Assembly (NCBI GenBank): GCA_945879015.1 | Contig: CAMCUO010000005.1 | Coordinates: 1,306-65,305 of the forward strand | Direction: 5' to 3' | From: Chitinophaga pinensis | GTDB lineage: Bacteria > Bacteroidota > Bacteroidia > 2-12-FULL-35-15 | DNA: 64,000 nt | Part shown: positions 13,441-31,279 of the stretch, piece by piece | How the letters are laid out: every line of letters starts with the position of its first letter | How positions within the stretch are numbered: position 1 is the first letter of the stretch | Translations under genes and position numbers: made by a program | The notes under the pieces: model-generated | The model's database searches: none | What the model was told of the DNA's origin: nothing | The model's input: only the letters and a program-made list of their open reading frames with translations

Positions 13441-13851
13441 ATGAAAAAACTTATCTATTCTCTTGTAATTACATTTTTAATGGGATTATCGGTAAACACA
13501 TTCGCTCAAAAAGCAGTTGCTACTATGGCATATTTGAATGTTAAAACTTCTAAAAAAGTTGTAGATGATAAAACTGCAATTGTTAGCTTTCAGTTAAATA
13601 ACATTTCAGATGAAGCTACATTAGCAAAATATAAGAAAGCATTTTCTTCTCAACAAAGAATTCAGTCAGTAACTACTTCTTTGCAAAAAGGAAATATGGC
13701 TTCTTTTTATATTAAAATGGACAAAACAGCAACACTAGAAACTTTACAAAGATTATTCGTTAAGGCACATGTTGCATCAGTAAATGTTGATGGCAAAGTT
13801 GCAGCTACTAAAGATCTTTCTAAATTAAAACAAAAATCTGCTAAAAAATAA
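13441..13851 (+). CDS. Small secreted hypothetical protein.
   Basis: 136 aa with signal peptide MKKLIYSLVITFLMGLSVNTFAQ; Lys-rich; no recognisable domain. Confidence 0.45.
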   Translation: MKKLIYSLVITFLMGLSVNTFAQKAVATMAYLNVKTSKKVVDDKTAIVSFQLNNISDEATLAKYKKAFSSQQRIQSVTTSLQKGNMASFYIKMDKTATLETLQRLFVKAHVASVNVDGKVAATKDLSKLKQKSAKK

Positions 13852-13871
13852 TATTTTTTCATACTTATAAA

Positions 13872-14999
13872 ATGGGTATTACTTTTTGTAATCCCCATTT
13901 TGTTTTTTACACCCATTCCATTATTGTGGTCGAACCGATAAACAAACAATTGCATTTCATCATTGGCATTGGACGCTCCGGAACGACCATTCTGAATAAG
14001 ATATTAAATTCTCATCCTTCTATTCACAGTTTACCAGAGGCAAATTTCCTTCTTTTTTTTCTGAACGATTATAAAAATGTAACTCGTTTTACAAAAGAGA
14101 ATATTGAGTTAATGTTTCAGCAGATTAAGATCTTTTCATTGTCGCATCCATTGGTTGGTTGGGAATTGGACATGGAAAATGCAAAGCAAAATCTTATAGA
14201 TATTGTTTCAAAAGGTGAATTGTCCTATGCTACACTTTGTAAAACTATTTATTCTGAAATTAAAGTAACAGGGAAAGACAAGTCAAACGCTACAATGCTG
14301 ATTGATAAAAATCCTGCTTTTACTTTATCAGTTGACCAATTGGAAAAACATTTTCCTGAATCAAAATTTATTTTGTTGGTTAGAGATTACAGAGCAAATG
14401 TATTGTCGAGAAAACAAAATGCTTATTTGAAATCACCTCTTGTGCCTTATAATGCTACTCGTTGGAGAGTTTTTAATCTGATTGCCAATAAGTTTTATCA
14501 AAAGCATAAGAGCAAAGTATTGTTATTGAGATATGAAGATTTGGTGAGCGAATACGATGCATCCATGAAAAAAGTGTTTGCCTTTTTAAATGTGAAAGAG
14601 GAAGATATGAAAGAAACGGACTTGTCGAAAGTGGATGTTTCAAAAATGGAAATTGCTAATGAGCATAAAAAATACTTTTCAAAAAAATATGAAGATTTAA
14701 GTAAGCCAATTAATACCAAGAGAGTAAATGCATGGCAAACAGAATTGAGCAAAGAGGATATTGCTGAGTGTGATACTATTTGTGCGAGTTTTGCTAAAGT
14801 GTTTGGTTATACAGAATTTACTCCTGTTCCTTTTTTCAAAAAAATCGGGATTATCTTAAAGAACATTTTTATTATTATTCCTTCTTATTTAGATATTAAA
14901 AAGGATCAGTTGTTGTACCACGTTTCTGCAAAAACAAAAATGAATGCTTTGATTAAGCGACACGAAACGCTTGGTTTTATTAAGCGTTCAGATTCGTAA
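13872..14999 (+). CDS. Sulfotransferase-family protein (PAPS-dependent).
   Basis: 5'-PSB P-loop IIGIGRSGTTILNKILNSHPS; about 370 aa; paralog of the adjacent convergent gene. Confidence 0.7.
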   Translation: MGITFCNPHFVFYTHSIIVVEPINKQLHFIIGIGRSGTTILNKILNSHPSIHSLPEANFLLFFLNDYKNVTRFTKENIELMFQQIKIFSLSHPLVGWELDMENAKQNLIDIVSKGELSYATLCKTIYSEIKVTGKDKSNATMLIDKNPAFTLSVDQLEKHFPESKFILLVRDYRANVLSRKQNAYLKSPLVPYNATRWRVFNLIANKFYQKHKSKVLLLRYEDLVSEYDASMKKVFAFLNVKEEDMKETDLSKVDVSKMEIANEHKKYFSKKYEDLSKPINTKRVNAWQTELSKEDIAECDTICASFAKVFGYTEFTPVPFFKKIGIILKNIFIIIPSYLDIKKDQLLYHVSAKTKMNALIKRHETLGFIKRSDS

Positions 15000-15014
15000 A
15001 TTATACTTAATTAT

Positions 15015-15045
15015 AACGTCACACTGAGCGGAGTCCAAGTGCGTT
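15015..15045. repeat. Short dispersed motif cgtcacactgagcggagtcCaagtgcg (GAGTCGAAG family).
   Basis: Near-identical to 3625-3652. Related copies at 2624-2650, 37201-37230 and 54955-54975. Confidence 0.4.
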
Positions 15046-15052
15046 ATCTTTA

Positions 15053-16096
15053 CTAAATCCGATTCTTCGAAGGAGAAGGCCTGAAGGCTAAAGGTAGCTT
15101 GTATTTTATCTTAATTAAAATTCCCCAGACTGAGGATTTCAAATAACAATAGTTGTAATATAGTTTATCGAAAATAGTAGTTTTTTTTGAAGGAATGTGT
15201 TTCGCATAACCGAATCTCAAAGCCAATTTCTCACAAGCAAAATCAAGCAAAGCAATTTCTTCCGATTTTAATTCATTCACATAAGCATTAACCCTTTCGG
15301 TATTTACCTTTTTTTCCAAATTACCGTGCATACGTTGAATTTTTTCATTCTTTTCCTTAGAAACATTTTCCACCGCATGCTTTTTTATCTCTTTTGAAAG
15401 TTCCTGAAAATTGAGCATTTGCTCGGTATACGGAACATGAATGTAGGAACAAAGCAATTGTAAGTGCTCTGTAGGATCACTTGCCAAGTCTTCATATTTA
15501 ATTAAATGATAGGGAATGTTTTTCGTGGCAAGACATTCAAAAATGCTTTCATAATAATAATTCCAATCGGCTGCCAACTTGTGAATTGGAACATTTTCAT
15601 CCGAATATTTTCTTCTCGATAAAATATTGTCTCTGTAATCTCTAACAATGACAATAAATTTTGCATCAGGAAAGATTTCTGAAATTTTATCAATGTGCAA
15701 AGAGTAAGATGGATTTTTATCGATTACCCAATTCACATTTTTCTTCTCTTTTTGAGATAGGGGGTAATTCAAATAAGCGAGCTTGCAAACATTTGCAAAA
15801 GTTTTATCCTTTAACTGAAGGATATCTTTCTTTAATTCCGGACCGGGTTTCCATATACTTATCACTCTGTTGAAATTTTGGTCGAACATATCAATAAATG
15901 CATCCACTACTTTCTCATCATTAAAATCCTGCTGATGAAAGGTGTGATAAGAGTGCATAATGAATTCGTTTTCTGGACTGGCAATAATCTCAGGATTGGA
16001 ATTGAGTATATTTGTGAGAAGAGTAGTGCCCGAGCGACCCATTCCTACAATAAAGGCAATTTTTGGTAAAGATGATAATGGTTTTAATTCAGTCAT
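15053..16096 (-). CDS. Sulfotransferase-family protein (PAPS-dependent), paralog.
   Basis: IVGMGRSGTTLLTNILNSNPEI P-loop; 347 aa; convergent with 13872-14999. Confidence 0.7.
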   Translation of the reverse strand: MTELKPLSSLPKIAFIVGMGRSGTTLLTNILNSNPEIIASPENEFIMHSYHTFHQQDFNDEKVVDAFIDMFDQNFNRVISIWKPGPELKKDILQLKDKTFANVCKLAYLNYPLSQKEKKNVNWVIDKNPSYSLHIDKISEIFPDAKFIVIVRDYRDNILSRRKYSDENVPIHKLAADWNYYYESIFECLATKNIPYHLIKYEDLASDPTEHLQLLCSYIHVPYTEQMLNFQELSKEIKKHAVENVSKEKNEKIQRMHGNLEKKVNTERVNAYVNELKSEEIALLDFACEKLALRFGYAKHIPSKKTTIFDKLYYNYCYLKSSVWGILIKIKYKLPLAFRPSPSKNRI

Positions 16097-16310: not shown

Positions 16311-18854
16311 ATGAGGCTAATTGACAAATATTTTCCTTTAATTTCAGTTACTTCAGAAAATCGGGAGGCGCTTTTCAATATCGATAGGCTTCGTTTTTTT
16401 AGTCTGGCTTTAGCGCAATTTATTTTAATTCTTTTTATTGTTACTCGCTATAATTTTGAAAAGTCATCAGGAATAATCGATTATGCTCCTTATGTTATTC
16501 TAGTATTTGCAATTTATAGTTTTATTGCCATCCGTTTTCGTCCAGCATTTCTATTTCTTGCGTGTGTTGCACTTGTTTATGCAGCATTTGGAATTCTGGC
16601 TGGAAGTTTTTTTATTCTTATCGGATTAGGTTTGATTTTAATTTGTCACTTACCTATAAAATATACTTATCGCTTTGTATTAATATTAGCTATTGCATTT
16701 CTTCTAGCTCTTTTTAGGACAGAATTTATTTACATTCCATGGATGACTATGACTGCTATGTACATGGCTCCATTGTTTATGTTCCGACTCATTATTTATT
16801 TGTATGAAATAAAGAACGGAGTGGTACCTGCAAATAAATGGCAAAGTATCAGTTACTTTTTTATGTTTCCAAATGTGTTCTTTCTCTTCTTTCCAATTAT
16901 CGATTACAAAACCTATATCAAAACACACCTCGATTCACCTGAAAAAGAAATATGGCAAAAAGGAATTCGATGGATGCTGCGTGGATTGATTCACATCATG
17001 TGTTATCGTTTGATCTGTTTTCATTTTTTAATCGGACCAGTTGAAGTAATTGACCTTCCAACAATGTTGCAATACATGGTGGTTAATTATTCTTTGATTA
17101 TCAGACTTTCTGGTGTATTTCATTTTATGATTGGTCTGGTTTGTATGTTTGGATTCAATCTTCCTCAAATATTTGACAATTATTTTACTGCTACCAGCTT
17201 TGTTGATTTGTGGAGAAGAATAAATATTTATTGGAGAAATTTCGTTCTAAAAATATTTTTCTACCCAACAATGTTTAGGTATAAAAAAATTCTGAAAAAG
17301 AATTTGTTGGCTTTTACCATGATGACGGTTTTCTTTATAACCTGGATAATGCATAGTTATCAGTTGTTTTGGATAACAGGTGTAGTTTCTGTTAGATCCA
17401 TAGATGTTATTTTTTGGATGGTGATTGGTGCATGTATAACTACAAATTCGGTAATTGTTGAAAAATATACTTTAGCTGAAGACAGAGTAGAAAAGCCTCA
17501 ATCGGAGTTTAAAAAGTATTTCATGAAAATAATCCGAATGATGGGAATGTTTCTTTTCATGTCAATTATGTGGTCGTTATGGAATACACGTACATTGGAA
17601 GATTGGCTTTTTATTGTTTCAAAAGGAAAACAAGTTGATTCGAAACAGTTACTTCTTATTTTTTCGGTTGTAATTGGAATTATTGGTTTAGGAATTCTTG
17701 TTCAGATGATGTTGAAAAATGTTAAGTTAAAACAGCTTATTAATAGGAAACCGCACGAAACAATTTTATTGACTTTGTCTACACTTACACTTCTAACATT
17801 ATTTTCTTTCAAAGAAATTCGTTCTAATATACCTTTATCAGTGCAACATTTGTACGATCAAATTTCTGATGGTTCAGCTAACAAACTTGAGAAAACAAAT
17901 GCTGAAGCAGGTTATTACGATAAATTGATTGAAGGCGAAGAGGGCAATACAATTGGCATAGGAGGAAGGTCATTAAAAAAGATGGTGAAGAAAAATCCTT
18001 ATACCAATGCTTATATTTATCAAAACAATATTGTAAACCGAAGAATGAAACCCAATCTCAACATTGTTGGTTCGGATCATAATTTTCAAAGTAATAGTTT
18101 TGGAATAAGAGATAAAGAGTATTCTATAAAAAAACCTCTTGGAACAAAACGTTTAGCATTGCTTGGCGGCTCTTATCAAATGGGTTCTGGTGTAAATAAC
18201 AATGAAGTTTTTGAAGCCATTGCAGAAGAAAGAATGAACAAAGAGTTGGTGGATACAAATTATAAAGCTTTTGAAATTTTCAATTTTGCTGCTGGTGGTT
18301 ATTATTTGTTGCAGCATGTTGAAATAGTTCATACATCTGTATTTCAATACGACATGGATGCCTTGGTATATTTTGCGCATACTGATGAAAGAGGCAAAGT
18401 GGTAAAAGATTTTACTACTATTATCAAGAAAGAATTGCCATTGAAATACCCATTTCTTCAGCAAATTGTCAAAGAAAGCGGCATTAAATCTTATATGAGT
18501 ATTTTACAAATAAGAGAATTACTGACTCCATATGCCGATACAATTATGAAATGGGGTTATAAGGAAATATATGAGCAATGTAAAAAGAACAATGTGGTTC
18601 CTGTTTGGGCCTATATGGAAACTACTACTGAGTTTGTTGATGATGCAGAATATAATGAGCTAAAAGCATACGCTGAATCATTAGGTTTTGTAACTTTGGA
18701 TTTACGCAATACCTATGGCAATATTGATAGAGTTGAAATTCAGATTTCGGATTTAAATACTCACCCAAATGTATTAGGACATCGATTGATTGCTGAAAGG
18801 TTTTATAAAGAGTTGAAATTAAAAAGAGATAGTATTTTTAGAATTGTTGAATAA
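16311..18854 (+). CDS. Fused MBOAT (DltB/AlgI-like) membrane O-acyltransferase plus C-terminal DltD/SGNH-like extracytoplasmic domain.
   Basis: 847 aa. The N-terminal roughly 450 aa is polytopic, with the MBOAT motif LWRRINIYWRNF (the WRRWHIS analog; its His is replaced by Asn) and the invariant His in TWIMHSY. After two more TMs, a roughly 340 aa domain has GGSYQMGSG (block I-like) and DLNTHPNVLGHRLIAE (SGNH block V, DxxH). Confidence 0.75.
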   Translation: MRLIDKYFPLISVTSENREALFNIDRLRFFSLALAQFILILFIVTRYNFEKSSGIIDYAPYVILVFAIYSFIAIRFRPAFLFLACVALVYAAFGILAGSFFILIGLGLILICHLPIKYTYRFVLILAIAFLLALFRTEFIYIPWMTMTAMYMAPLFMFRLIIYLYEIKNGVVPANKWQSISYFFMFPNVFFLFFPIIDYKTYIKTHLDSPEKEIWQKGIRWMLRGLIHIMCYRLICFHFLIGPVEVIDLPTMLQYMVVNYSLIIRLSGVFHFMIGLVCMFGFNLPQIFDNYFTATSFVDLWRRINIYWRNFVLKIFFYPTMFRYKKILKKNLLAFTMMTVFFITWIMHSYQLFWITGVVSVRSIDVIFWMVIGACITTNSVIVEKYTLAEDRVEKPQSEFKKYFMKIIRMMGMFLFMSIMWSLWNTRTLEDWLFIVSKGKQVDSKQLLLIFSVVIGIIGLGILVQMMLKNVKLKQLINRKPHETILLTLSTLTLLTLFSFKEIRSNIPLSVQHLYDQISDGSANKLEKTNAEAGYYDKLIEGEEGNTIGIGGRSLKKMVKKNPYTNAYIYQNNIVNRRMKPNLNIVGSDHNFQSNSFGIRDKEYSIKKPLGTKRLALLGGSYQMGSGVNNNEVFEAIAEERMNKELVDTNYKAFEIFNFAAGGYYLLQHVEIVHTSVFQYDMDALVYFAHTDERGKVVKDFTTIIKKELPLKYPFLQQIVKESGIKSYMSILQIRELLTPYADTIMKWGYKEIYEQCKKNNVVPVWAYMETTTEFVDDAEYNELKAYAESLGFVTLDLRNTYGNIDRVEIQISDLNTHPNVLGHRLIAERFYKELKLKRDSIFRIVE

Positions 18855-18888
18855 TATATTTGTTTGTCAAACTTAAAATATAAAAAAC

Positions 18889-19152
18889 ATGCGTGCAGAC
18901 ATTAACGAAATAAAAGAAACAGTAAAGGCGTTCGTTAATAAACGTTTTTTAAAAAATGCTGAAGGGAAAGAATTAAACTATTCAACTCCTCTCATTTCTG
19001 GTGGTATTATTGATTCGATACTTGCTATGCAGTTGGTTGTTTTCCTAGAACAAACCTACAGGTTTGAATTTCAAGCACACGAAGTTGATAAAGATAATTT
19101 AGATAACATCGATATCATTGCAGGGTTTGTTGTAAAGAAGTTGAATGCATAA
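18889..19152 (+). CDS. D-alanyl-carrier-protein-like (DltC-like) small carrier protein.
   Basis: 87 aa. GGIIDSILAMQLVVFLEQ has the phosphopantetheine Ser in a DltC-like context. Its stop overlaps the next start (ATGCATAA). Confidence 0.75.
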   Translation: MRADINEIKETVKAFVNKRFLKNAEGKELNYSTPLISGGIIDSILAMQLVVFLEQTYRFEFQAHEVDKDNLDNIDIIAGFVVKKLNA

Positions 19153-20599
19153 GGTAAATAAGCTATATCAGCTTCTTGAAAATTCGGCAGAACAGTTTCC
19201 GGATAATACTGCTTTAGTTTTGCAAGAAAAAAAGATTAGCTATCAACAATTAGATTCATTAGCTAATAAAATAAAACAAGCTCTTCATTCTATAAACATT
19301 TCTGAAGGAAATCGTATCGCTATTTGCTCTCCTAAATCCATTGAATTTGTCGCCTCTATTTTCGGAATATTAAAAGCTGGTGCTGCTTATGTTCCTGTTG
19401 ATTATAATTCACCTATTGAACGCAATAATTTTATTATTGAAAATTGTGAAGTAGCTGCAATTATTATTACTAAAGACTTGTTAGAAAATTTTAAAAATAA
19501 TTTTACGTTTTTCGCAGATATTGGAATTGATTTAGTTTTAGCAAAAAGCAATAAGGTAACATTAAAAAAATCTTCTGAAGATTTATCCTATATTCTATAT
19601 ACTTCAGGCTCAACGGGAAATCCAAAGGGTGTAATTTATACCAATGCTGGAGCACTTGAATTTATCAATTGGAGTTCAAATACTTTTTCTCCCACTTCGA
19701 GTGATTGTTTTTCGTCGCATGCGCCTTTTCATTTCGATCTTTCTATTTTTGATTTATATGTTTCTATAAAGCATGGAGCAACTTTGGTTCTGATAAAAGA
19801 AGAAGTGGCGAAACAACCTATGCTATTGGCTCAATTAATTTCAGAACAAAAAATTAGTATTTGGTATTCTACTCCTTCAATTCTAATAATGCTTTCGGAA
19901 TATGGCAAAATGGAAAAGTATAAGTATGATAGTTTGAGATTGATATTATTTGCTGGTGAAGTTTTCCCAATTGTCAAATTAAATACATTAAAGAAAAAAG
20001 TTAAAACATCGGTTTTTTATAATCTTTATGGACCAACAGAAACAAATGTTTGTACGTATTATCAATTGCCTGAAAATATTGAAACAAATATTCCGATTGG
20101 AAAAGTATGCGAACATTATCAAGCCTGTGTTGTTGGTGATGAGCTTTTAATTAGCGGAAAAGGTGTGATGTTGGGTTATTGGAATGTTCCTGAAAAAGAT
20201 AATTTTTGGAAGGACCAAGAAAATAGATTTTGGTACAAAACGGGTGATTTGGTAGATGTTGCAGAGAGTGGAGATTATATCTTTAAAGGCAGAAGAGATA
20301 GAATGGTGAAGCGCAATGGTTATAGAATAGAATTGGATGAAATAGAAACAGGATTAAGTAAACATCCCGATATTGTTATTGCGGCTGTTGTCAGTAAGAA
20401 CAATGAAGAAGAGCAAATGATTATTTCTGCCTTTGTTGTTTTAAGAAATACTGAGCAAAAATCAGTCATAAAAATGAAGGAATATTGTATGAATCACTTA
20501 CCTTCGTATATGGTTCCCAACGACTTTATTTTTGTTGAGGATTTGCCACAAACATCAAGCAATAAAGTGGATTATCAGAAATTAAAACAATTAGCCTAA
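19145..20599 (+). CDS. Stand-alone adenylation enzyme (ANL superfamily), DltA-like aminoacyl-carrier-protein ligase.
   Basis: Motifs: YTSGSTGNPKGV (A3), FHFDLSIFDLY (A4; Asp rather than Glu after the pocket, as in DltA), YGPTE (A5), YKTGD (A7), GRRDRMVKRNGYRIELDEIE (A8), NKVD (A10). About 484 aa; no C or T domain. Confidence 0.8.
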   Translation: MHKVNKLYQLLENSAEQFPDNTALVLQEKKISYQQLDSLANKIKQALHSINISEGNRIAICSPKSIEFVASIFGILKAGAAYVPVDYNSPIERNNFIIENCEVAAIIITKDLLENFKNNFTFFADIGIDLVLAKSNKVTLKKSSEDLSYILYTSGSTGNPKGVIYTNAGALEFINWSSNTFSPTSSDCFSSHAPFHFDLSIFDLYVSIKHGATLVLIKEEVAKQPMLLAQLISEQKISIWYSTPSILIMLSEYGKMEKYKYDSLRLILFAGEVFPIVKLNTLKKKVKTSVFYNLYGPTETNVCTYYQLPENIETNIPIGKVCEHYQACVVGDELLISGKGVMLGYWNVPEKDNFWKDQENRFWYKTGDLVDVAESGDYIFKGRRDRMVKRNGYRIELDEIETGLSKHPDIVIAAVVSKNNEEEQMIISAFVVLRNTEQKSVIKMKEYCMNHLPSYMVPNDFIFVEDLPQTSSNKVDYQKLKQLA

Positions 20600-21747
20600 T
20601 GGAACTTTCCTTATCAACAGAGCAAATGCTTATCCAGGAAAACATTATTGGTTTTGCTCAAAAAGAATTGAATAATAATATTATTGAGCGCGATAAAAAC
20701 CAGCAGTTTTTACCTGAATTATGGAAAAAATGTGCGGAACAAAAACTTACTGGATTACCTGTTGAGGAAAAATTTGGTGGTGCTGGTTTAGATCCTATTT
20801 CTTCTGTTTTAGCATTGGAAGCATTGGGTTATGGCTCCGATGACGGTGGTTTGAATTTTTCTATATGTGCACATTTATTGGCTTGTGTTGTTCCTATCTG
20901 GAAATACGGAAACGAAAATCAAAAGAAAAAATACTTGCCTGATTTATGTAATGGAAAAAAAATTGCTGTAAATGCAATGACAGAAAGCGAATCGGGTTCG
21001 GATGTTTTTAATATTAAAACAACTGCTAAAAAGCAGGATAATGGATTTGTGATAAACGGAACAAAAACGTTTTGTTCAAATGGTCCAGTTGGAGATATAA
21101 TTTTAGTTTATGCGCTTACTGATGAAAGCAAAGGGTATTATGGTGGAATTACAGCTTTCATTGTAGATAAAAATGCAAAAGGATTTAAAGTCGGTCAGAA
21201 ATATGAGAAAATGGGTTTGCGCAGTTCGGGTATTTCTGAAGTAATATTTGAAAATGTTTTTGTTTCAGAAGAAGATATGGTTGGAGGATTTGGTGGTGGA
21301 GCAACGGTGTTTAATCATTCGATGGAGTGGGAGCGAACTGGTATGGCAGCTTTGCATGTTGGAACCATGCGCAAGTTGCTTGAAAAATCAATTGATTATG
21401 TTCAAACACGCAAATCAGGAAATGAAGTAATCGGTAAAAAACAAGCTATCGCTCATCGCATTGCAAATATGAAAGTTCAATTGGAAGCAGCTTCTTTGCT
21501 TACTTATAAAGCTGCATTAGGATTAGAAAAAAATAAAGAGAACATGATTCATGCAGCTTCAGCTAAACTTTTTGTGAGTGAAGCATTTGTTGCTGCTGCG
21601 ATTGATACCATGCAACTTTTTGGTGGAAATGGTTATATGACAGAATACGGTATTGAAAGAATTGTGCGAGATGCTCTTGGAAGTACTGTTTATTCTGGCA
21701 CATCCGATATTCAACGTAACATCATTTCTCGTTTGCTTGGATTGTAA
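20599..21747 (+). CDS. Acyl-CoA dehydrogenase-fold flavoprotein, atypical (candidate acyl-carrier-protein dehydrogenase).
   Basis: 382 aa ACAD fold. The C-terminal signature reads RDALGSTVYSGTSDIQRNIISR; the catalytic Glu of the canonical YEGT is replaced by Ser. Start overlaps the adenylase stop (TAATG). Confidence 0.8.
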   Translation: MELSLSTEQMLIQENIIGFAQKELNNNIIERDKNQQFLPELWKKCAEQKLTGLPVEEKFGGAGLDPISSVLALEALGYGSDDGGLNFSICAHLLACVVPIWKYGNENQKKKYLPDLCNGKKIAVNAMTESESGSDVFNIKTTAKKQDNGFVINGTKTFCSNGPVGDIILVYALTDESKGYYGGITAFIVDKNAKGFKVGQKYEKMGLRSSGISEVIFENVFVSEEDMVGGFGGGATVFNHSMEWERTGMAALHVGTMRKLLEKSIDYVQTRKSGNEVIGKKQAIAHRIANMKVQLEAASLLTYKAALGLEKNKENMIHAASAKLFVSEAFVAAAIDTMQLFGGNGYMTEYGIERIVRDALGSTVYSGTSDIQRNIISRLLGL

Positions 21748-21790: not shown

Positions 21791-23179
21791 ATGAAACTAT
21801 ACGATGTCATCATTATTGGCGGGGGGCCAACAGGTTCAACTGCTGCGACACTTTTAGCTCAAAAAGGGTTAAGTGTTTTGTTGTTAGAAAAAGAATCCTT
21901 CCCAAGAGAACATGTTGGTGAATCATTGATTCCGATTTCTTATGATCAATTGAATAAGTTGGGATTGGTTGAAGAAATGAAAAAAATTTCTAGTCGTAAA
22001 CCTGGAGTTAGTTTTGATGCAAATGATGGTGTGAACCGATCTTTATGGTGTTTTAAAAGTGTTATTAAAGATGAATCATATTTAGCTTTTCATGTTATCC
22101 GTTCGGCATTTGATAAGCTTTTGTTGGATAATAGTAAAAAAGTGGGAGCTGAAGTGAGAGAGCAATACATGGTGAAAAATGTAATTCTTGATAGAGCAGA
22201 TAAAATAGTAGAAGTGCATGCAACAAATGCAGAAGGCAAAGAAGAAAAATTTGAATCCAAATTTATTGTTGACGCAAGTGGACTAAGTACTTTTCTAGGA
22301 AGAAAATTGGGAGTTAAAAAAGCATATGCGGGTTTAGATAGAGTGGCTACTTGGTCGCACTGGACAAACACCGAATTTGATACAAATTTAAAAGAAGGCG
22401 TTATTAAAATTGTTTATTTGGGTGGAGAGAAAAAAGGATGGATATGGGTTATTCCTGTGAGCAAAGAGCATTTGAGCATTGGTGTGGTTGTGAATAACAG
22501 TCATGTGAAAGAAAAGAAAAAGCAATTTCAAGATTCAGAAGATTGGAAAAAAGATTATTATTTGCAGGAACTACAAGAATGTTATTTGTATAAAACGGTA
22601 TTGAAAAACGCTAAGATGGAGCATAAAGTTGCCATGGCTGGTGACTACTCTTATTACTGCGAAAAAAAGTATGGTGAAAATTATGCTTTAGTTGGAGATG
22701 CTGGTGCATTTTTAGATCCTATTTTTTCAAGCGGAATTTTTGTTGGAATGAAGAGTGCTGAATTGGTAGCGGATGGTATTGAAGCGAACCTGAAAGGAAA
22801 AGGGAATGCTGAAATGGACAAAGCTTATGTTAATATCAATGGTGCTGTCAACTTACTTGAAAAATTTATTCGCTTGTTTTATACTCCTGAAGCACTTGAT
22901 TTTTCTAAGATTGGAACTCCAGAAGGACTTTTAATGTTTAAAAAATACGAACAAACATATTCCGTTTTCCATTACTTATTAGCGGGTGATTTTTTCAATA
23001 ATTATGAAAAGTACAGTGAATTTATTGATACCATACGTGATGAGAAGACTATGGCCAAATTCGAAAATTTAATTGATCACGCGCACAGCGCCTTACCTAA
23101 AAGTTGCGGAGAAGATTTTGAAGAAATGTATGGTGAAATGACGCATAAAATTGAGTTTGATCATAAGGCGTTTGAGTAA
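21791..23179 (+). CDS. Flavin-dependent halogenase (PltA/PrnC-like clade).
   Basis: GxGxxG IIIGGGPTGSTAA; FPREHVGESLIP; WxWxIP as GWIWVIPV (22436-22459); FxxPxxSxG as FLDPIFSSGI. The ORF-track N-terminal extension from 21653 overlaps the ACAD gene and is rejected. Confidence 0.75.
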   Translation: MKLYDVIIIGGGPTGSTAATLLAQKGLSVLLLEKESFPREHVGESLIPISYDQLNKLGLVEEMKKISSRKPGVSFDANDGVNRSLWCFKSVIKDESYLAFHVIRSAFDKLLLDNSKKVGAEVREQYMVKNVILDRADKIVEVHATNAEGKEEKFESKFIVDASGLSTFLGRKLGVKKAYAGLDRVATWSHWTNTEFDTNLKEGVIKIVYLGGEKKGWIWVIPVSKEHLSIGVVVNNSHVKEKKKQFQDSEDWKKDYYLQELQECYLYKTVLKNAKMEHKVAMAGDYSYYCEKKYGENYALVGDAGAFLDPIFSSGIFVGMKSAELVADGIEANLKGKGNAEMDKAYVNINGAVNLLEKFIRLFYTPEALDFSKIGTPEGLLMFKKYEQTYSVFHYLLAGDFFNNYEKYSEFIDTIRDEKTMAKFENLIDHAHSALPKSCGEDFEEMYGEMTHKIEFDHKAFE

Positions 23180-23349: not shown

Positions 23350-24063
23350 TCAAAAAAACCAAGCACTAACATTCATCACAATCTTCCTTCCCCAAGAAGG
23401 AACATGTTTTAAAAAATAAAAATTCTGAAATTTTAATTGCCACCAAAGTGTTGCATTTACTTTAGCACAAATTTGTTTTTTGTCATTTTCAAATTCTTCA
23501 CGTAAAATATCAATAATCAAAATCCACCGTTCATTTTCTGTTTTGTTCCATACTTCATGTTCGTATGCATCACAGAAGGCAAAGAGTTTTCCATTTTTCC
23601 ATGAAATTTGCTCATTTCCAACTCTCATTCCAATTTCCGGTAAGCTATTTTTGCAGTTTAAAGTAAAGTGACATCGATACATCACATTGCTATCACCATG
23701 ATGTGGTTTTATGGAAGTATTTGCATTTAAAATGGAAAACGAAGCATGTGTCATTGCTGGAATGCTTTCGATTATTCTTGTCGTCTCCGGACATTTTTCA
23801 CAATTTTCTTTTTTCTTTTTGCTCCAAACATACAATGGAAAAATAGTCCAGTTCTCTGCTTTGCTGGCAAGTGATTTATTCATGTAAGGAATAATATTTT
23901 TATCCTTTGATTCAACAAGTTTGGTGAATTCTTTTAAAATTAAATCGTAATTGTCTTCAAAAAGAGCCACCCATTTTTTGTCATGGATATCAAAAAAATT
24001 AGGCTCTGGGCCTTTGTAAGCGCTATTCTCTGCAAACGAATACCATTTCTTTGAATTTCCCAT
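23350..24063 (-). CDS. Aspartyl/asparaginyl beta-hydroxylase-family 2OG/Fe(II) oxygenase, paralog 1.
   Basis: 237 aa. HHGDSNVMYRCHFTL, WKNGKLFAFCDAYEHEVWN, ILIIDI; matches the AspH core (H..R.H..L / FDDSFEHE.WN). Confidence 0.65.
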   Translation of the reverse strand: MGNSKKWYSFAENSAYKGPEPNFFDIHDKKWVALFEDNYDLILKEFTKLVESKDKNIIPYMNKSLASKAENWTIFPLYVWSKKKKENCEKCPETTRIIESIPAMTHASFSILNANTSIKPHHGDSNVMYRCHFTLNCKNSLPEIGMRVGNEQISWKNGKLFAFCDAYEHEVWNKTENERWILIIDILREEFENDKKQICAKVNATLWWQLKFQNFYFLKHVPSWGRKIVMNVSAWFF

Positions 24064-24806
24064 TAGTAAACTTTAAATAGATTAACACTTACTATAGCCA
24101 GTCGTGTAAATGGATGTAAACATTTTGCTAAAAACTTAATTGTTCTAGCAGATAATTTTTTAAGAAAAGTATATTTCTGCCATCTCTTTTGTAAAAAAAG
24201 CGAAGTCATTACTGTTGCGCAAATTTTTTCTTTTTCATTTTTAAATTCATCACGCACAACATCCACCACAAAAATAAAACGATCTTTCTCCGAATTATTA
24301 TACGCTTCATGTTGATAGGCATCCATAAACATCAACCATTTCCCATTTTTCCATGGACGAACTTCCTCTTTAACTTTAAAGGCACATTCTGGAAGTCCAG
24401 CCGGAATTTCCAGTCCTAAATGACATCTATAAATAGTATTTGTATCTCCGCAATGTGGATGAATTTTACTTTTTGCTTCTAATAAATTAAAAGAGGAAGA
24501 AGTAATTTCTGGATATTTTTGAATAATGGAATAAGTTATTGGAAAATATTTCTGATTTTTAAACTGTTGAATTCCCCATGTTCTCAGTGGAATTGTTTTC
24601 CAGCTATTTTCACGCGAAACCATTGATTTTATAAAATAACCAATGAGGTTGTCGCTTTTAAGATATTCTTTGAGTTCTTTATAAATGGCTTCGTAATTTT
24701 CTTCAAACTCTTTTGTCCAGCGAAATTCTTCTGGTTTAGTAAAAGGAGCTTCCGTTCCATGATATTCGTCATTTACGTTATATATGTTGTACCAAGCCTT
24801 TTGCAT
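24063..24806 (-). CDS. Aspartyl/asparaginyl beta-hydroxylase-family oxygenase, paralog 2.
   Basis: 247 aa. HPHCGDTNTIYRCHLGL, WKNGKWLMFMDAYQHEAYN, FIFVVDV. Its stop overlaps paralog 1's start. Confidence 0.65.
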   Translation of the reverse strand: MQKAWYNIYNVNDEYHGTEAPFTKPEEFRWTKEFEENYEAIYKELKEYLKSDNLIGYFIKSMVSRENSWKTIPLRTWGIQQFKNQKYFPITYSIIQKYPEITSSSFNLLEAKSKIHPHCGDTNTIYRCHLGLEIPAGLPECAFKVKEEVRPWKNGKWLMFMDAYQHEAYNNSEKDRFIFVVDVVRDEFKNEKEKICATVMTSLFLQKRWQKYTFLKKLSARTIKFLAKCLHPFTRLAIVSVNLFKVY

Positions 24807-24850
24807 CCACTCTTTATTTATTATATTTGTTTTAGTAAAAACTCTAGCAA

Positions 24851-25537
24851 ATGTCTGAATTCGAATTTACAAATAAAAATCCTAAGTTCTTTTATGATTC
24901 TGCTCAGTTTCCTTTTTTGAAGCCATTGCTTGATAATGTTGGGGTTATTCGAAAAGAGTTGCAAGATATTATTGCTTCAGGAAAGGAAAATCAATGGATG
25001 AATACGTTTCCACATTATGTAAAATCTGACGAGCACAAAGCTTGGAAGGTATTTTCATTTTTGTTCTTTAATATGAAGCTTCCCAACAACGCAAAATTAT
25101 GTCCGAAAACGGCTGAACTCATTTATTCTATTACAGAGATTCTTTCTTGTGATTATTCTTATATGAATCCAGGAACTCATGTGCTGCCTCACAAAGGTTA
25201 TTCACGAATGGTTTTACGTTGTCACATTGCTTTGATTGTTCCAGATGAGGAACTTTGTGCTTTACGTGTTGGAAATGAAATTAAACATTGGAAAGAAGGC
25301 GAACTTATAATTTTTGATGATTCATTTGAACATGAAGCATGGAATAGATCCGACAAAAGAAGAGTTGTTTTAATGTTTGATATTCCAAATCCCCTTTGGG
25401 GATATACTGCTCATGAAATTTCAAAATATAAAATTGATAAAATTGATGATCCTTTTCTTTTATCGATGGCTCCCAAAGATGAATGGATAAAAGCGTTTGA
25501 AAAAGGAATTTTTCCTTTGGAGAGTTTTAAAGATTAA
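24851..25537 (+). CDS. Aspartyl/asparaginyl beta-hydroxylase-family oxygenase, paralog 3 (most canonical).
   Basis: 228 aa. LPHKGYSRMVLRCHIALIVP, WKEGELIIFDDSFEHEAWNRSDKRRVVLMFDI. Near-textbook AspH C-terminal core. Confidence 0.7.
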   Translation: MSEFEFTNKNPKFFYDSAQFPFLKPLLDNVGVIRKELQDIIASGKENQWMNTFPHYVKSDEHKAWKVFSFLFFNMKLPNNAKLCPKTAELIYSITEILSCDYSYMNPGTHVLPHKGYSRMVLRCHIALIVPDEELCALRVGNEIKHWKEGELIIFDDSFEHEAWNRSDKRRVVLMFDIPNPLWGYTAHEISKYKIDKIDDPFLLSMAPKDEWIKAFEKGIFPLESFKD

Positions 25538-26584: not shown

Positions 26585-27196
26585 TTAGAGCAAAGCATTT
26601 ATCGCCTCCATATTCTCATCACAAACTTCACCGCTAAATTTTAATTCCGCATTTTGATCGCTCAAAATTGCAGCAGCTTTATTTAGTTTTGCACCAATTG
26701 TTTTGTAGTCATCCACGTGCAATTCGTATAATTGATTGTCCACATGCTCTTGATCTGACAGTAATTTGTAGCCAAGTAACTTGTTGTAATGAATGGCTCT
26801 ATCATTGTCGCTCAATATTCTGATACGAGAAATTTTGCTGACATTTAATTTTAAAAACATAAAATTCAAAAGACACAATGTTGCAAAAACGGCTGCAAAG
26901 GAGCTGATGTAGTCTTTGTCACTAATAAAAATTCCTCCTTCGCCAAATCCTAAGCCTACATCATAATTTTTTGCATTGATGAGTCCAACTTGTTTGCCTT
27001 CAAATTCAATAATAAAATAATAATTGTTTCTGTTGTTTACGGATTTGAACCAAATTTTTTGAGCTTCAGGTGTAATGAAATTACGGTATTCCATGTAATT
27101 AGCAATATCACTTTGGTTTCTCCAATTACGAACCATCTCAATATCTTTTTCTTGCACTCTTACAAGCCGAACGCCATATTGTTCAAGAACTAACAT
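26585..27196 (-). CDS. GNAT-family N-acyltransferase (RimJ/RimL-like).
   Basis: 203 aa. Lies at the 3' end of the KASIII operon; its start overlaps the GT2 stop. Confidence 0.55.
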   Translation of the reverse strand: MLVLEQYGVRLVRVQEKDIEMVRNWRNQSDIANYMEYRNFITPEAQKIWFKSVNNRNNYYFIIEFEGKQVGLINAKNYDVGLGFGEGGIFISDKDYISSFAAVFATLCLLNFMFLKLNVSKISRIRILSDNDRAIHYNKLLGYKLLSDQEHVDNQLYELHVDDYKTIGAKLNKAAAILSDQNAELKFSGEVCDENMEAINALL

Positions 27197-28107
27197 ATGA
27201 TTTCGTCTTCGTTATAGGAAGGCGCATTGTTCAAAGCTTTTAACATCTGACTTATATATTGTGCGACAATTCCAATGCAGAAAATAATTATACCTGTAGA
27301 AAAAAGAATACTTACAATCAAAGAAGTATAACCTTCCACATCAATTTTTAAGTAAAACTTTTTAATGATGTAAAAAATTCCAATAATGAAATTGATAGTA
27401 GCTAAACTAAATCCAATATAGGTTACCAATTTTAATGGTAGAGTAGATGAAAACATGATGATGGTAGAAGTCATCTTAAACAATCCTGCTACTTTGTAAC
27501 GTTGCTTATGTATGTAATCAGGATTTGCATTTACATCTACAAAGGCTAATTTTTTTGTGTACCATAAACACAATTCATCAATAAAAACAAATTGTTTGTG
27601 ATTGTGTACCAACTTATCAGTCAGTGATTTTTTTAATAATCTAAAACTGCTTCCTTTTCCTTTTTGTGGGCCTTCCAGCTTTGCTAGTATTTTATATGCT
27701 CCAGAAAAAATTCCTCTAAAAAAAGGTTGATTTTGTTTTGGATACAATCCATAAACCAGATCAGCATTTGTATTTTTTTGATTATCGATTAGCTTTTGAA
27801 TTTCTGAAGGGTGAACTTCTAAATCATCATCAATGGTAATAACAAAATCTCCTTTCGCATGTTTGAAGCCACAAACAGTAGCTCCGTGCTGACCGAAATT
27901 TTTACTTAAGCGAATAATGGTTGTGTTGGATGAACTTGCTTTTATTTTTTTTAATACTTCCCAGCTATTGTCGGTACTACAATCATCCACAAAAATAATT
28001 TCGTAGGAATATTTGTTTTCAAAAAATGAAACAATGCTTTGGTGCACCTTCTCAAGTGCATTTTCAGAACCATAAACTGGAATAACTATGCTATAGTTTG
28101 TGCTCAT
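27190..28107 (-). CDS. Family-2 glycosyltransferase, polyprenyl-phosphate sugar synthase type (ArnC/GtrB/DPM1-like).
   Basis: SIVIPVYGSENALEKV...YEIIFVDDCSTDNS (DxD). Two C-terminal TM helices; about 305 aa, the ArnC architecture. Confidence 0.75.
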   Translation of the reverse strand: MSTNYSIVIPVYGSENALEKVHQSIVSFFENKYSYEIIFVDDCSTDNSWEVLKKIKASSSNTTIIRLSKNFGQHGATVCGFKHAKGDFVITIDDDLEVHPSEIQKLIDNQKNTNADLVYGLYPKQNQPFFRGIFSGAYKILAKLEGPQKGKGSSFRLLKKSLTDKLVHNHKQFVFIDELCLWYTKKLAFVDVNANPDYIHKQRYKVAGLFKMTSTIIMFSSTLPLKLVTYIGFSLATINFIIGIFYIIKKFYLKIDVEGYTSLIVSILFSTGIIIFCIGIVAQYISQMLKALNNAPSYNEDEIIC

Positions 28108-29892: not shown

Positions 29893-30129
29893 TTATTTTA
29901 ATTTTTCGATAGTAATATTATAAAGATCTTGGATTGTTTGTGCCGATTTTAAATCAGCGCCATTTAATAATGCATTAAAATTCGCATCAATGTATGCAAT
30001 GATAATTAAGGCATGCATACTGCTCCAACCTTTTATACTTCTAAAGTTTGTAGCGGAGCTAAGAGTCCCAGGTTCTAAATCTTCAAATTCAACTTCTAAA
30101 CCTTTCGTAAATTCTTCTATGCTATTCAT
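29893..30129 (-). CDS. Acyl carrier protein (dedicated).
   Basis: 78 aa acidic. KGWSSMHALIII has the Ser attachment site. Sits between the two KASIII genes. Confidence 0.6.
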   Translation of the reverse strand: MNSIEEFTKGLEVEFEDLEPGTLSSATNFRSIKGWSSMHALIIIAYIDANFNALLNGADLKSAQTIQDLYNITIEKLK

Positions 30130-30165
30130 AAATGTAAATATATTAAAATATACAATTCAAGATGA

Positions 30166-31179: not shown

Positions 31180-31279
31180 CTTTGTAAAATGAATAGAAAA
31201 TATTTAAAAAGTGTTTATGACAATTTTCGAATTAAAAGTACAAAAATACTTTCTCATCTTGGGAAAAACTTAATTATAT

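What the first reader, a model, noticed from the sequence alone, without database searches (positions are those of the whole stretch)
16311..20599. A complete Dlt-like carrier-protein aminoacylation module in a Gram-negative Bacteroidota genome, with DltB and DltD fused into one 847-aa protein
Three translationally coupled genes encode the full logic of the Gram-positive D-alanylation (Dlt) pathway. The A-domain has A3 to A10 motifs and a DltA-type FDLSIFD pocket entry, and there is no condensation domain nearby. This points to a Dlt-type surface esterification system rather than an NRPS. Two features are unusual. First, the MBOAT (invariant His retained in TWIMHSY; the WRRWHIS His replaced by Asn in LWRRINIYW) is fused to an extracytoplasmic SGNH/DltD-like domain (DLNTHPNVLGHRL block V). 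Second, the host lacks teichoic acids. The acceptor is therefore unknown; it could be LPS, capsule, a glycolipid, or an outer-membrane or T9SS-anchored glycan.
Basis: partly seen in the sequence, partly recalled or inferred. Interest (0 to 1): 0.85.

Follow-up and report, generated by a model that had tools for sequence, protein, structure and literature searches.

The report
Pyrrole-loading membrane acyltransferase operon
A Bacteroidota operon joins the enzymes that turn proline into a (halogenated) pyrrole-2-carboxyl group on a carrier protein to a fused membrane acyltransferase that probably carries the group across the inner membrane onto an unknown envelope molecule; the same four-gene core occurs in at least eight bacterial phyla, and I found no description of it in the literature searched.

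Summary
The three genes are real and lie at the stated coordinates, but the operon has five genes (16311-23179).

**Membrane protein.** The 847-aa protein is an MBOAT (best structural match DltB; His348 and Asn305 invariant). It is followed by two extra transmembrane helices, an invariant Tyr-Tyr in a flexible linker, and an SGNH domain (Ser621 and His818 invariant). It shows no specific DltD homology.

**Payload genes.**
- The carrier, adenylase and next gene match the proline-to-pyrrole cassette (PltL/PltF/PltE, PigG/PigI/PigA), not DltC/DltA.
- The adenylase specificity code is DLFYLALVCK. PigI has DLFYIAWVC and DltA has DLMTLCTVAK.
- The best solved adenylase match is PltF.
- The adjacent acyl-CoA-dehydrogenase-like gene matches prolyl-carrier dehydrogenases best (AnaB, Bmp3, PigA).
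- A flavin-dependent halogenase follows.

**Distribution.** The order membrane protein, carrier, adenylase, dehydrogenase is colinear in 30 loci from Bacteroidota, Gemmatimonadota, Proteobacteria, Acidobacteriota, Chloroflexota, Planctomycetota and others.

**Most likely function.** (Halo)pyrrole-2-carbonyl is made on the carrier and moved across the membrane from MBOAT to Tyr to Ser. It is then esterified to an unknown envelope glycoconjugate. This is not D-alanylation.

**Novelty.** It is a new variant of two known systems. The chemistry and the acceptor are inferred, not shown.

The parts
16311..18854 (+). 847-aa fusion protein: MBOAT core (about aa 20-430), two extra TM helices (aa 444-503), flexible linker carrying the invariant Tyr535-Tyr536, and an SGNH domain (aa 568-847)
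17352..17354 (+). codon of His348, the invariant MBOAT catalytic histidine (WIMHSYQ)
17910..17927 (+). GYYDKL: candidate internal acyl-shuttle motif (family consensus G-Y-Y-x-x-L, both Tyr invariant in 74 sequences). It lies in the low-confidence linker after the last TM helix.
   Evidence: Compared with the FxYxxF shuttle of DltX/PatA described in PMC12148441. The role is inferred.
18012..18851 (+). SGNH domain. Block I is GGSY (Ser621, codon 18171-18173). Block II is N658/G663. Block V is LNTHPN (His818, codon 18762-18764). The acid residue two positions before His is D in 45 and N in 29 of 74 sequences, and N here.
18889..19152 (+). 87-aa stand-alone carrier protein with Ser43 in GGIIDSI
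   Evidence: Best PDB hits are Bmp1 ACP domain 6cxt_A (E 4.6e-7), then PltL and PigG; DltC scores E 0.8. BLASTP to PigG gives E 5e-6, to DltC E 0.09.
19145..20599 (+). stand-alone adenylation enzyme, predicted L-proline-specific (code DLFYLALVCK)
20599..21747 (+). acyl-CoA-dehydrogenase-fold prolyl-S-carrier-protein dehydrogenase (PltE/PigA/RedW/Bmp3/AnaB type)
   Evidence: NCBIfam: PigA 418 bits and RedW 381 bits, against 289 or less for other ACAD models. PDB: AnaB 322, Bmp3 295, PigA 291, against 257 or less for others.
21791..23179 (+). flavin-dependent halogenase (GWIWVIP and FLDPIFSSG motifs)
   Evidence: Pfam Trp_halogenase. PDB hits are 8zop, CndH, Mpy16, CmlS, Bmp2 and PltA. The start at 21791 follows the gene call.
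13441..16096 (.). context conserved in Bacteroidota relatives: 136-aa secreted protein (13441-13851, +) and two sulfotransferases (13872-14999 +, 15053-16096 -)
23350..25537 (.). context: three PF05118 (OlsC/LpxO-like) hydroxylase paralogues
26585..33304 (.). context conserved in Bacteroidota relatives: PseH-like GNAT, ArnC-like GT2 (polyprenyl-phosphate sugar transferase), FabG-like SDR, KASIII, 78-aa ACP, KASIII (all -), and a 674-aa GT-C (PMT_2/TMTC-like) plus TPR membrane protein (31280-33304, +)

Best explanation
A five-gene operon (16311-23179) makes an aromatic acyl group in the cytoplasm and delivers it outside the inner membrane.

1. The adenylase activates L-proline and loads it on Ser43 of the 87-aa carrier protein.
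2. The ACAD-fold dehydrogenase oxidises prolyl-S-carrier to pyrrole-2-carbonyl-S-carrier.
3. The halogenase chlorinates or brominates the pyrrole ring while it is still tethered.
4. The loaded carrier docks on the cytoplasmic face of the MBOAT domain. His348 catalyses transfer of the acyl group to a tyrosine (Tyr536 or Tyr535) in the flexible periplasmic linker.
5. The acyl-Tyr swings to Ser621 of the fused SGNH domain. That domain esterifies a hydroxyl of an extracytoplasmic acceptor.

In this Bacteroidota lineage the acceptor is probably a glycoconjugate built by the co-conserved neighbouring genes. These are an ArnC-like polyprenyl-phosphate sugar transferase, a GT-C/TPR transferase, an N-acylation cassette, hydroxylases and sulfotransferases.

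Shown here: the identity and fold of each component, and the conservation of the module. Inferred: the substrates, the direction of transfer, the role of the tyrosines and the acceptor.
For: **Payload**
- The A-domain code DLFYLALVCK matches PigI from a complete pig cluster (DLFYIAWVC) and differs from DltA (DLMTLCTVAK). All 50 family A-domains carry DL[LFH]Y.ALV[CV]K.
- The best single-domain solved match is PltF at 273 bits, against 199 or less for DltA.
- The carrier is closest to Bmp1-ACP, PltL and PigG.
- The ACAD is closest to AnaB, Bmp3 and PigA and to the NCBIfam PigA/RedW models. It shares FNHSMEWER and YSGTSDIQR with them.
- The halogenase groups with enzymes that act on carrier-tethered substrates, including Mpy16, Bmp2 and PltA.

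**Linkage**
- The adenylase stop overlaps the ACAD start by 1 nt, and the carrier and adenylase genes overlap by 8 nt.
- Of 44 related loci with at least 6 kb on both sides, 32 carry carrier, A and ACAD. 30 of the related loci fetched are colinear. They span at least 8 phyla.

**Transfer machine**
- MBOAT fold with invariant His348 and Asn305; SGNH fold with invariant Ser621 and His818; invariant Tyr535-Tyr536 in a low-pLDDT linker.
- The last cytoplasmic loop (aa 465-484) has 5 K/R against 1 D/E, which puts the linker and the SGNH domain outside.
- The relay MBOAT-His to Tyr to SGNH-Ser to polymer has been demonstrated for DltBXD and PatAB (PMC12148441).

**Acceptor context**
- The ArnC-like GT2, the GT-C/TPR protein, the PseH-like GNAT, the KASIII-ACP-KASIII-FabG set, the hydroxylases and the sulfotransferases are conserved next to the module in L004, L006-L008, L010 and L011.
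Against: - Nothing biochemical supports the scheme. The NCBIfam PigA and RedW scores (418 and 381) are below the curated equivalog cut-offs (500 and 650), so the ACAD may not be an exact functional equivalent. AnaB, its best solved match, stops at the 2-electron product.
- The candidate shuttle GYYxxL departs from the published FxYxxF at positions 1 and 6, and it is internal rather than C-terminal.
- The SGNH acid residue is not conserved (N in this protein).
- The closest SGNH structures are mostly hydrolases, so release rather than transfer is possible.
- Outside Bacteroidota the neighbourhoods are heterogeneous, with no uniform polysaccharide locus.
- 8 of 44 family members have no carrier, A or ACAD nearby.
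- Topology rests on a crude positive-inside count only.
Confidence: 0.6

Rival explanations
1. Export-coupled release. The same cytoplasmic chemistry operates, but the SGNH domain acts as a hydrolase. The fusion protein is then an off-loading device that frees (halo)pyrrole-2-carboxylate into the periplasm or medium as a small-molecule product, with no stable acylation of an envelope polymer.
For: - The operon has no thioesterase or other off-loading enzyme.
- The closest SGNH structures are mainly esterases and thioesterases such as TesA.
- The block V acid is not conserved.
- Outside Bacteroidota the neighbours include ABC and MFS transporters and methyltransferases rather than consistent glycan genes.
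Against: - Every characterised bacterial MBOAT-SGNH pair is a transferase (PMC12148441).
- Moving an acyl group through a Tyr relay only to hydrolyse it is uneconomical.
- In Bacteroidota the module is tightly conserved with glycoconjugate-building genes.
Confidence: 0.15
2. The payload is not aromatic. The ACAD performs only a 2-electron oxidation, as AnaB does, or none at all. The group transferred is then prolyl or a pyrroline-carboxyl, giving a true aminoacyl/iminoacyl esterification closer in spirit to Dlt.
For: AnaB is the best solved match of the ACAD at 322 bits. The equivalog cut-offs for PigA and RedW are not reached. 2 of 44 loci have carrier and A but no ACAD (L025, L041).
Against: - Bmp3 and PigA, which make the pyrrole, score nearly as high (295 and 291 bits).
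- NCBIfam's best models are the pyrrole-forming PigA and RedW.
- The co-transcribed halogenase, of the class that includes the pyrrolyl-S-carrier halogenases Mpy16, Bmp2 and PltA, needs an electron-rich aromatic ring (the ring requirement is established knowledge of these enzymes).
Confidence: 0.12
3. One reading: a Dlt-type system that esterifies a surface polymer with D-alanine (or a similar small amino acid), with the membrane protein being a DltB-DltD fusion.
For: The DltA HMMs give high raw scores (298 and 284 bits). DltB is the best structural match of the MBOAT part. The architecture of carrier plus adenylase plus MBOAT plus SGNH parallels Dlt.
Against: - The DltA scores are far below their cut-offs (476 and 560), and the DltC model gives 19 bits against a cut-off of 68.
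- The specificity code lacks the DltA residues, with Ala instead of Cys at position 301 among the differences.
- PltF and PigI outrank every DltA in the PDB.
- There is no DltD homology.
- A prolyl-carrier dehydrogenase is translationally coupled and conserved with the module across phyla.
Confidence: 0.04
4. Coincidental neighbours. The MBOAT-SGNH protein uses acetyl-CoA, as PatA and AlgI do, and the proline/pyrrole cassette feeds an unrelated cytoplasmic pathway.
For: 8 of 44 family members stand without the cassette, some of them in EPS loci (L003).
Against: 30 loci show the colinear order fusion-carrier-A-ACAD across distant phyla, while the flanks differ. The cassette has no other acceptor enzyme (KS, C domain or TE) next to it.
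Confidence: 0.05

Closest known systems
Dlt pathway of Gram-positive bacteria (DltA, DltC, DltB, DltX, DltD)
   Same: An adenylase loads a small stand-alone carrier protein. An MBOAT takes the acyl group from the carrier's phosphopantetheine arm. An SGNH-fold protein performs the final transfer outside the membrane. DltB is the closest solved structure to the MBOAT part.
   Different: The adenylase and carrier are of the proline/PltF-PltL type, not DltA/DltC. The tethered substrate is oxidised (and here halogenated) before transfer. MBOAT, shuttle and SGNH are one polypeptide. There is no DltX microprotein and no DltD homology. The hosts are diderm and, to general knowledge, lack teichoic acids.
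PatA/PatB, AlgI/AlgJ/AlgX, WssH/WssI: acetyl-CoA-dependent MBOAT-SGNH O-acetyltransferases
   Same: The MBOAT core is followed by two extra TM helices and then a tyrosine motif on the periplasmic side, with an SGNH partner. The Tyr-to-Ser relay is the probable mechanism (PMC12148441).
   Different: The donor here is inferred to be a carrier protein, not acyl-CoA. The motif is GYYxxL and internal, not a C-terminal FxYxxF. SGNH is fused in cis. The payload is an aromatic heterocycle rather than acetate.
Type II NRPS proline-to-pyrrole cassettes (PltF/PltL/PltE/PltA of pyoluteorin; PigI/PigG/PigA; RedM/RedO/RedW; Bmp4/Bmp1/Bmp3/Bmp2; CloN4/N5/N3)
   Same: A stand-alone Pro adenylase, a PCP, an ACAD-fold dehydrogenase and a flavin-dependent halogenase, with the best sequence matches to exactly these proteins.
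   Different: In the known pathways the pyrrolyl-S-PCP is handed to a cytoplasmic ketosynthase, a soluble acyltransferase or a thioesterase to build a small molecule. Here the only candidate recipient is a membrane MBOAT-SGNH protein, and the module is spread over many phyla as a compact four-gene unit.
OatA-type AT3-SGNH fusion O-acetyltransferases
   Same: A single polypeptide with a membrane acyltransferase domain, a tyrosine intermediate and a C-terminal extracytoplasmic SGNH domain (PMC12148441).
   Different: The membrane domain here is MBOAT, not acyltransferase-3. OatA uses acetyl-CoA.

Membership tests
Dlt D-alanylation system | DltA: D-alanine-specific adenylase reaching the DltA model cut-off and carrying the DltA pocket residues | tested here: not met
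   TIGR01734 scores 284 bits against a cut-off of 560, and NF003417 scores 298 against 476. The code is DLFYLALVCK against DLMTLCTVAK in B. cereus DltA. PDB DltA scores are 199 bits or less, below PltF at 273.
Dlt D-alanylation system | DltC-type carrier protein | tested here: not met
   NF003464 scores 19 bits against a cut-off of 68. PDB DltC gives E 0.8. BLASTP to B. cereus DltC gives E 0.09 and is out of register.
Dlt D-alanylation system | DltB: MBOAT with catalytic His that accepts a carrier-protein thioester | tested here: inconclusive
Dlt D-alanylation system | DltD homology of the extracytoplasmic domain | tested here: not met
Dlt D-alanylation system | DltX microprotein with a C-terminal FxYxxF motif | tested here: not met
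   No ORF of at least 60 aa that is a candidate microprotein lies in or directly beside the operon, but DltX is about 48 aa, so a shorter ORF was not excluded. An internal GYYDKL (family GYYxxL) sits in the fusion protein instead.
Type II NRPS prolyl-to-pyrrolyl-S-PCP cassette | Stand-alone L-Pro adenylase | tested here: met
   By sequence only. The best single-domain PDB hits are PltF and PigI. The code agrees with PigI at 7 of 9 positions and is uniform in 50 family members. Substrate was not assayed.
Type II NRPS prolyl-to-pyrrolyl-S-PCP cassette | Stand-alone PCP with a conserved Ser | tested here: met
   Ser43 aligns with the Ser of Bmp1-ACP, PltL and PigG.
Type II NRPS prolyl-to-pyrrolyl-S-PCP cassette | ACAD-fold prolyl-S-PCP dehydrogenase (PigA/RedW equivalog) | tested here: inconclusive
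   The best models are PigA at 418 bits (cut-off 500) and RedW at 381 (cut-off 650), against 289 or less for other ACADs. The best PDB hits are AnaB, Bmp3 and PigA with shared motifs. This is family level, below the equivalog cut-off.
Type II NRPS prolyl-to-pyrrolyl-S-PCP cassette | Four-electron oxidation to pyrrole, and halogenation on the carrier | not testable with these tools
   This needs enzyme assays with intact-protein MS.
Bacterial MBOAT-SGNH acyltransferases (PatAB/AlgIJX type) | MBOAT with an invariant His, plus two additional C-terminal TM helices | tested here: met
Bacterial MBOAT-SGNH acyltransferases (PatAB/AlgIJX type) | C-terminal FxYxxF acyl-shuttle motif | tested here: inconclusive
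   Y535 and Y536 are invariant in GYYxxL (G in 67 of 74, L in 68 of 74), in a low-pLDDT linker on the predicted outside. The motif differs at positions 1 and 6 and is internal.
Bacterial MBOAT-SGNH acyltransferases (PatAB/AlgIJX type) | SGNH partner with a Ser-His(-Asp) catalytic set | tested here: met
Bacterial MBOAT-SGNH acyltransferases (PatAB/AlgIJX type) | Acyl-CoA as donor | not testable with these tools
   Gene linkage to a carrier protein argues for a carrier donor, as in Dlt.
Flavin-dependent halogenases acting on carrier-tethered substrates | GxGxxG, WxWxIP and FxxPxxSxG motifs, and similarity to PltA/Bmp2/Mpy16/CndH/CmlS | tested here: met
   IIGGGPTGS, GWIWVIP and FLDPIFSSG are seen in the alignments, with scores of 142-174 bits to these enzymes. 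The catalytic Lys was not verified.

The most novel reading that the evidence does not exclude
O-(halo)pyrrole-2-carbonylation is a previously unseen, widespread modification of the bacterial cell envelope. A compact four-gene unit (MBOAT-Tyr-SGNH fusion, carrier, proline adenylase, prolyl-carrier dehydrogenase) found in at least eight phyla decorates extracytoplasmic glycans, glycolipids or glycoproteins with an aromatic, UV-absorbing heterocycle made from proline. In some Bacteroidota and Chloroflexota the ring is further halogenated. The system would also be the first natural MBOAT-SGNH machine with all three relay elements (His, Tyr, Ser) in one chain.
Probability: 0.45. Interest if true: 0.88.

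Novelty: new variant of a known kind. Interest (0 to 1): 0.76.

Why it matters
- Acylation of envelope polymers (D-alanylation, O-acetylation) controls resistance to antimicrobial peptides, lysozyme and phages. All known MBOAT-SGNH systems move acetate or D-alanine.
- If this module moves a pyrrole-2-carbonyl group, it adds a new chemical class to cell-surface decoration. It would also link secondary-metabolite chemistry (type II NRPS, halogenases) to envelope biology.
- The module occurs in environmentally dominant groups, including Candidatus Accumulibacter, Gemmatimonadota and soil Bacteroidota.
- The single-chain His-Tyr-Ser arrangement would be a convenient model for the transmembrane acyl relay that has only recently been worked out for Dlt and PatAB.
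- The finding also shows that 'Dlt-like' annotations in Gram-negatives (JGI calls some members DltB) can hide a different payload.

Tried and rejected
- Pfam and NCBIfam on the 847-aa protein, whole and in halves, gave no significant hit even at E up to 10. A family profile against PDB sequences found only weak GDSL matches and no MBOAT. The MBOAT assignment therefore rests on the predicted structure and on hhalign.
- Promoter and terminator scans were no better than shuffled sequence.
- A hydropathy and positive-inside count resolves only the last three helices, not the MBOAT core.
- A Pfam census of 141 neighbouring ORFs from 15 non-close loci gave no uniform acceptor pathway. Sulfotransferases and methyltransferases recur most.
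- I looked for a published link in a Rubrivivax EPS paper and a Lysobacter pyrrole-2-carboxylate paper. Neither concerns this module.
- Six literature searches for the combination MBOAT/DltB with pyrrole, prolyl or carrier protein found nothing. The library lacks most subscription journals, so this is not proof of novelty.
- I considered an ornithine-lipid link, because the carrier's best NCBIfam hit is the OlsH/OlsI-associated ACP (75 bits, below its cut-off of 130) and three OlsC-like hydroxylases lie nearby. No OlsH/OlsI-type genes are present and PDB matches favour prolyl carriers, so I left it as a note.
- The catalytic lysine of the halogenase could not be placed with confidence from the alignments.

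Full report
**1. What is in the sequence**

The window comes from a metagenome contig (ENA ERZ27280328). It is Bacteroidota-like: about 32% G+C, a T9SS-sorted protein at 7978-9090, and closest relatives in Bacteroidia and Chitinophaga MAGs.

They are not the whole unit:
- The carrier gene overlaps the adenylase gene by 8 nt.
- The adenylase stop overlaps the ATG of a fourth gene by 1 nt (20599-21747).
- A fifth gene follows 43 nt later (21791-23179; start as called).
- All five are on the + strand, after a 214-nt divergent intergenic region.

**2. The 847-aa protein**

Sequence libraries do not recognise it. Pfam and NCBIfam give nothing for the whole protein. Only a Lipase_GDSL_2 trace at E 0.11 appears in the C-terminal half. 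A 23-sequence family profile finds only weak GDSL hits among PDB sequences.

It belongs to a large, length-conserved family:
- More than 1700 hits in the clustered database.
- 774 clusters at 50% identity with E<=1e-30, almost all 820-900 aa and aligned end to end.

An AlphaFold2 model built on 74 homologues is confident (pLDDT 86, pTM 0.79).
- Profile-sequence comparison with a genuine B. cereus DltB (from a dltXABCD operon, L089) gives 94.9% probability over the WRRIN/WNRWH region.
- The same test against DltD gives 5.5%.

In 74 sequences the following are invariant: W301, R303, N305, Y307, W308, H348, Q351, Y535, Y536, S621, N658 and H818. His is retained in TWIMHSY, Asn stands in WRRINIYW, and block V is THPN. 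'DltD-like' should be read as 'SGNH'.

**3. Architecture between the two domains**

Published work on DltBXD and PatAB shows the following (PMC12148441):
- Bacterial MBOATs pass the acyl group to a tyrosine in an FxYxxF 'acyl shuttle'.
- In PatA/AlgI-type proteins that shuttle sits after two extra TM helices that DltB lacks.
- The acyl-Tyr then feeds the SGNH serine.

The family motif G-Y-Y-x-x-L is in the same place. G is present in 67 of 74 sequences, both Y in 74 of 74, and L in 68 of 74. It is not the canonical motif, and it is internal because the SGNH domain is fused behind it. I treat it as the probable shuttle. This is inferred.

**4. The payload genes**

*Adenylase.* It reaches the generic amino-acid-adenylation model (317 bits). 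It stays far below the DltA cut-offs (284 against 560; 298 against 476). Among solved structures the best single-domain hit is PltF, L-proline-[L-prolyl-carrier protein] ligase, at 273 bits. PigI follows at 230, and the DltA entries score 199 or less. The higher LgrA totals are sums over two domains.

I mapped the ten specificity positions from the GrsA numbering (my own knowledge of the Stachelhaus positions). I read them from a MAFFT alignment with real reference genes fetched here:
- PigI from a complete pig cluster of Pseudoalteromonas xiamenensis (L086/L088).
- DltA of B. cereus (L089).

| Protein | Specificity code |
|---|---|
| Window adenylase | DLFYLALVCK |
| PigI | DLFYIAWVC- |
| DltA | DLMTLCTVAK |
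| Family, 24 members | DLLYLALVCK |
| Family, 13 members | DLFYLALVCK |

The remaining family members are single-position variants.

*Carrier.* It is closest to the Bmp1 ACP domain (E 4.6e-7), then PltL and PigG. DltC scores E 0.8. BLASTP to PigG gives E 5e-6, aligned on the Ser, and to DltC E 0.09.

*Fourth gene.* It has an ACAD fold.
- Best NCBIfam models: PigA (418 bits) and RedW, 'L-prolyl-[PCP] dehydrogenase' (381 bits), against 289 or less for any other ACAD model.
- Both scores are below the equivalog cut-offs.
- Best solved relatives: AnaB prolyl-ACP dehydrogenase (322), Bmp3 (295) and PigA (291), against 257 or less for ordinary ACADs.
- The alignments share FNHSMEWER and YSGTSDIQR.

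*Fifth gene.* It is a flavin-dependent halogenase with GWIWVIP and FLDPIFSSG. It is most similar to 8zop, CndH, Mpy16, CmlS, Bmp2 and PltA.

Together these four genes are the PltF/PltL/PltE/PltA (or Bmp4/1/3/2) cassette, which makes halogenated pyrrole-2-carbonyl-S-carrier protein from proline.

**5. Is the linkage real?**

A genome-collection scan returned 80 loci (the best of 482 confirmed) from these groups:
- Bacteroidota, Rhodothermales and Ignavibacteria
- Gemmatimonadota
- Beta- and Gammaproteobacteria (Accumulibacter, Pseudothauera, Azoarcus, Halioglobus, Woeseia)
- Acidobacteriota
- Chloroflexota
- Verrucomicrobiota
- Planctomycetota
- Hydrogenedentota

Searching these loci by tblastn with the window's proteins gave the following:
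- Of 44 loci with at least 6 kb on both sides, 32 contain carrier, adenylase (at least 40% identity) and ACAD (at least 40% identity).
- 30 of the loci fetched have the colinear order fusion-carrier-A-ACAD.
- 11 of the 44 have a halogenase.
- 8 have none of the three genes. An example is Rhodocaloribacter litoris, where the gene sits alone in an EPS locus.

A Microvirga plasmid also carries the module. The ACAD is thus a core member of the unit, which is hard to reconcile with D-alanylation. The halogenase is a lineage-specific addition.

**6. Acceptor**

The acceptor is not identified. In Bacteroidota relatives (L004, L006-L008, L010, L011, L046) a larger cluster is conserved around the module:
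- A 136-aa secreted protein.
- Sulfotransferases.
- PF05118 hydroxylases (OlsC/LpxO-like).
- A PseH-like GNAT.
- A GT2 whose best models are ArnC and PgfS, that is, polyprenyl-phosphate sugar transferases.
- A FabG-like SDR.
- Two KASIII genes flanking a 78-aa ACP.
- A 674-aa multi-TM plus TPR protein. Its homologues carry PMT_2 and TMTC domains, and JGI names them protein O-mannosyltransferases.

This reads as a route that builds an N-acylated, possibly hydroxylated and sulfated sugar on a polyprenyl phosphate. A GT-C enzyme would then transfer it in the periplasm. The pyrrole ester could be added to that glycoconjugate. This is context-based inference with low confidence.

Outside Bacteroidota the neighbours are heterogeneous: sulfotransferases, methyltransferases, ABC/MFS transporters and some GTs.

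**7. Mechanism proposed, and rivals**

The most likely scheme is this:
1. L-Pro is loaded on the carrier and oxidised to pyrrolyl.
2. The ring is halogenated.
3. MBOAT His348 catalyses transfer of the acyl group to Tyr535/536.
4. The acyl group passes to Ser621.
5. Ser621 transfers it to an acceptor hydroxyl outside the inner membrane.

The rivals are:
- Hydrolytic release of free (halo)pyrrole-2-carboxylate. There is no thioesterase in the operon and the SGNH neighbours are mostly esterases.
- A non-aromatic prolyl or pyrroline payload, in the AnaB manner.
- True D-alanylation.
- Coincidental linkage.

Their weights are given in the rival list.

**8. Comparison and novelty**

The system works like Dlt in using a carrier protein as the donor for an MBOAT. 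It resembles PatA/AlgI in having the extra helices and a tyrosine on the same chain. It resembles OatA in having the SGNH domain fused. Its cytoplasmic half is a type II NRPS pyrrole cassette.

It fails the membership tests for DltA, DltC, DltD and DltX. It is an MBOAT-SGNH acyltransferase at the fold and catalytic-residue level.

Six full-text searches found no description of an MBOAT coupled to a prolyl/pyrrolyl carrier system. The library lacks most subscription journals. I rate it a new variant of a known kind. Interest is high because the unit is widespread and the predicted surface chemistry has not been reported.

Noticed in passing
window 26585-33304: A conserved block next to the module in Bacteroidota relatives: PseH-like GNAT, ArnC/PgfS-like GT2, FabG-like SDR, KASIII, 78-aa ACP (no family hit), KASIII, and a divergent 674-aa multi-TM plus TPR protein. 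Homologues of the last carry PMT_2/TMTC domains. It looks like a polyprenyl-phosphate-sugar periplasmic glycosylation route with an N-acylated amino sugar.
   Followed up: partly
window 13441-13851: A 136-aa protein with a signal peptide and no family hit. It is conserved beside the sulfotransferases in L004, L006 and L009 at 52-73% identity. It could be a cluster-specific secreted partner or even an acceptor protein.
   Followed up: partly
window 23350-25537: Three paralogous PF05118 (Asp/Asn beta-hydroxylase, OlsC/LpxO-like) genes in a row, conserved with the cluster in Bacteroidota. The carrier protein's best NCBIfam hit is the ACP of the OlsH/OlsI ornithine-lipid pathway (75 bits, below its cut-off of 130). 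A lipid connection is possible but unexplained.
   Followed up: partly
L041 9312-16354: Two tandem paralogues of the MBOAT-SGNH fusion gene are followed by a carrier and an adenylase (code DLLYNALVCK), with no ACAD within the locus. L025 likewise has an adenylase but no ACAD. L065 and L073 have a carrier but no recognisable adenylase. These may be variants with other payloads.
   Followed up: no
L003 (Rhodocaloribacter litoris CP076718.1), also L032, L034, L043, L057, L067, L071, L077: Family members with no carrier, adenylase or ACAD within 10 kb. In L003 the gene lies in an EPS locus with glycosyltransferases, Wzy and sulfotransferases. These may use an acyl-CoA donor, or a cassette encoded elsewhere.
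   Followed up: no
L087 (Microvirga sp. VF16 plasmid pMVF16-2) 3877-10146; L069 (Pseudothauera rhizosphaerae CC-YHH848): Cultured strains that carry the full module. In Microvirga the 883-aa fusion gene is divergent from carrier-A-ACAD. Both are candidate organisms for genetics.
   Followed up: partly
window 7978-9090: A 370-aa protein with esterase/PHB-depolymerase-like hits and a T9SS C-terminal sorting domain. This supports the Bacteroidota origin of the contig.
   Followed up: no
L088 6210-7671 (Pseudoalteromonas xiamenensis pig cluster): pigI is annotated as a 421-aa AMP-binding protein followed by a separate 65-aa ORF, so the C-terminal subdomain appears split off. This may be a frameshift or an assembly error. 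It is why position 517 of the PigI code is missing.
   Followed up: no
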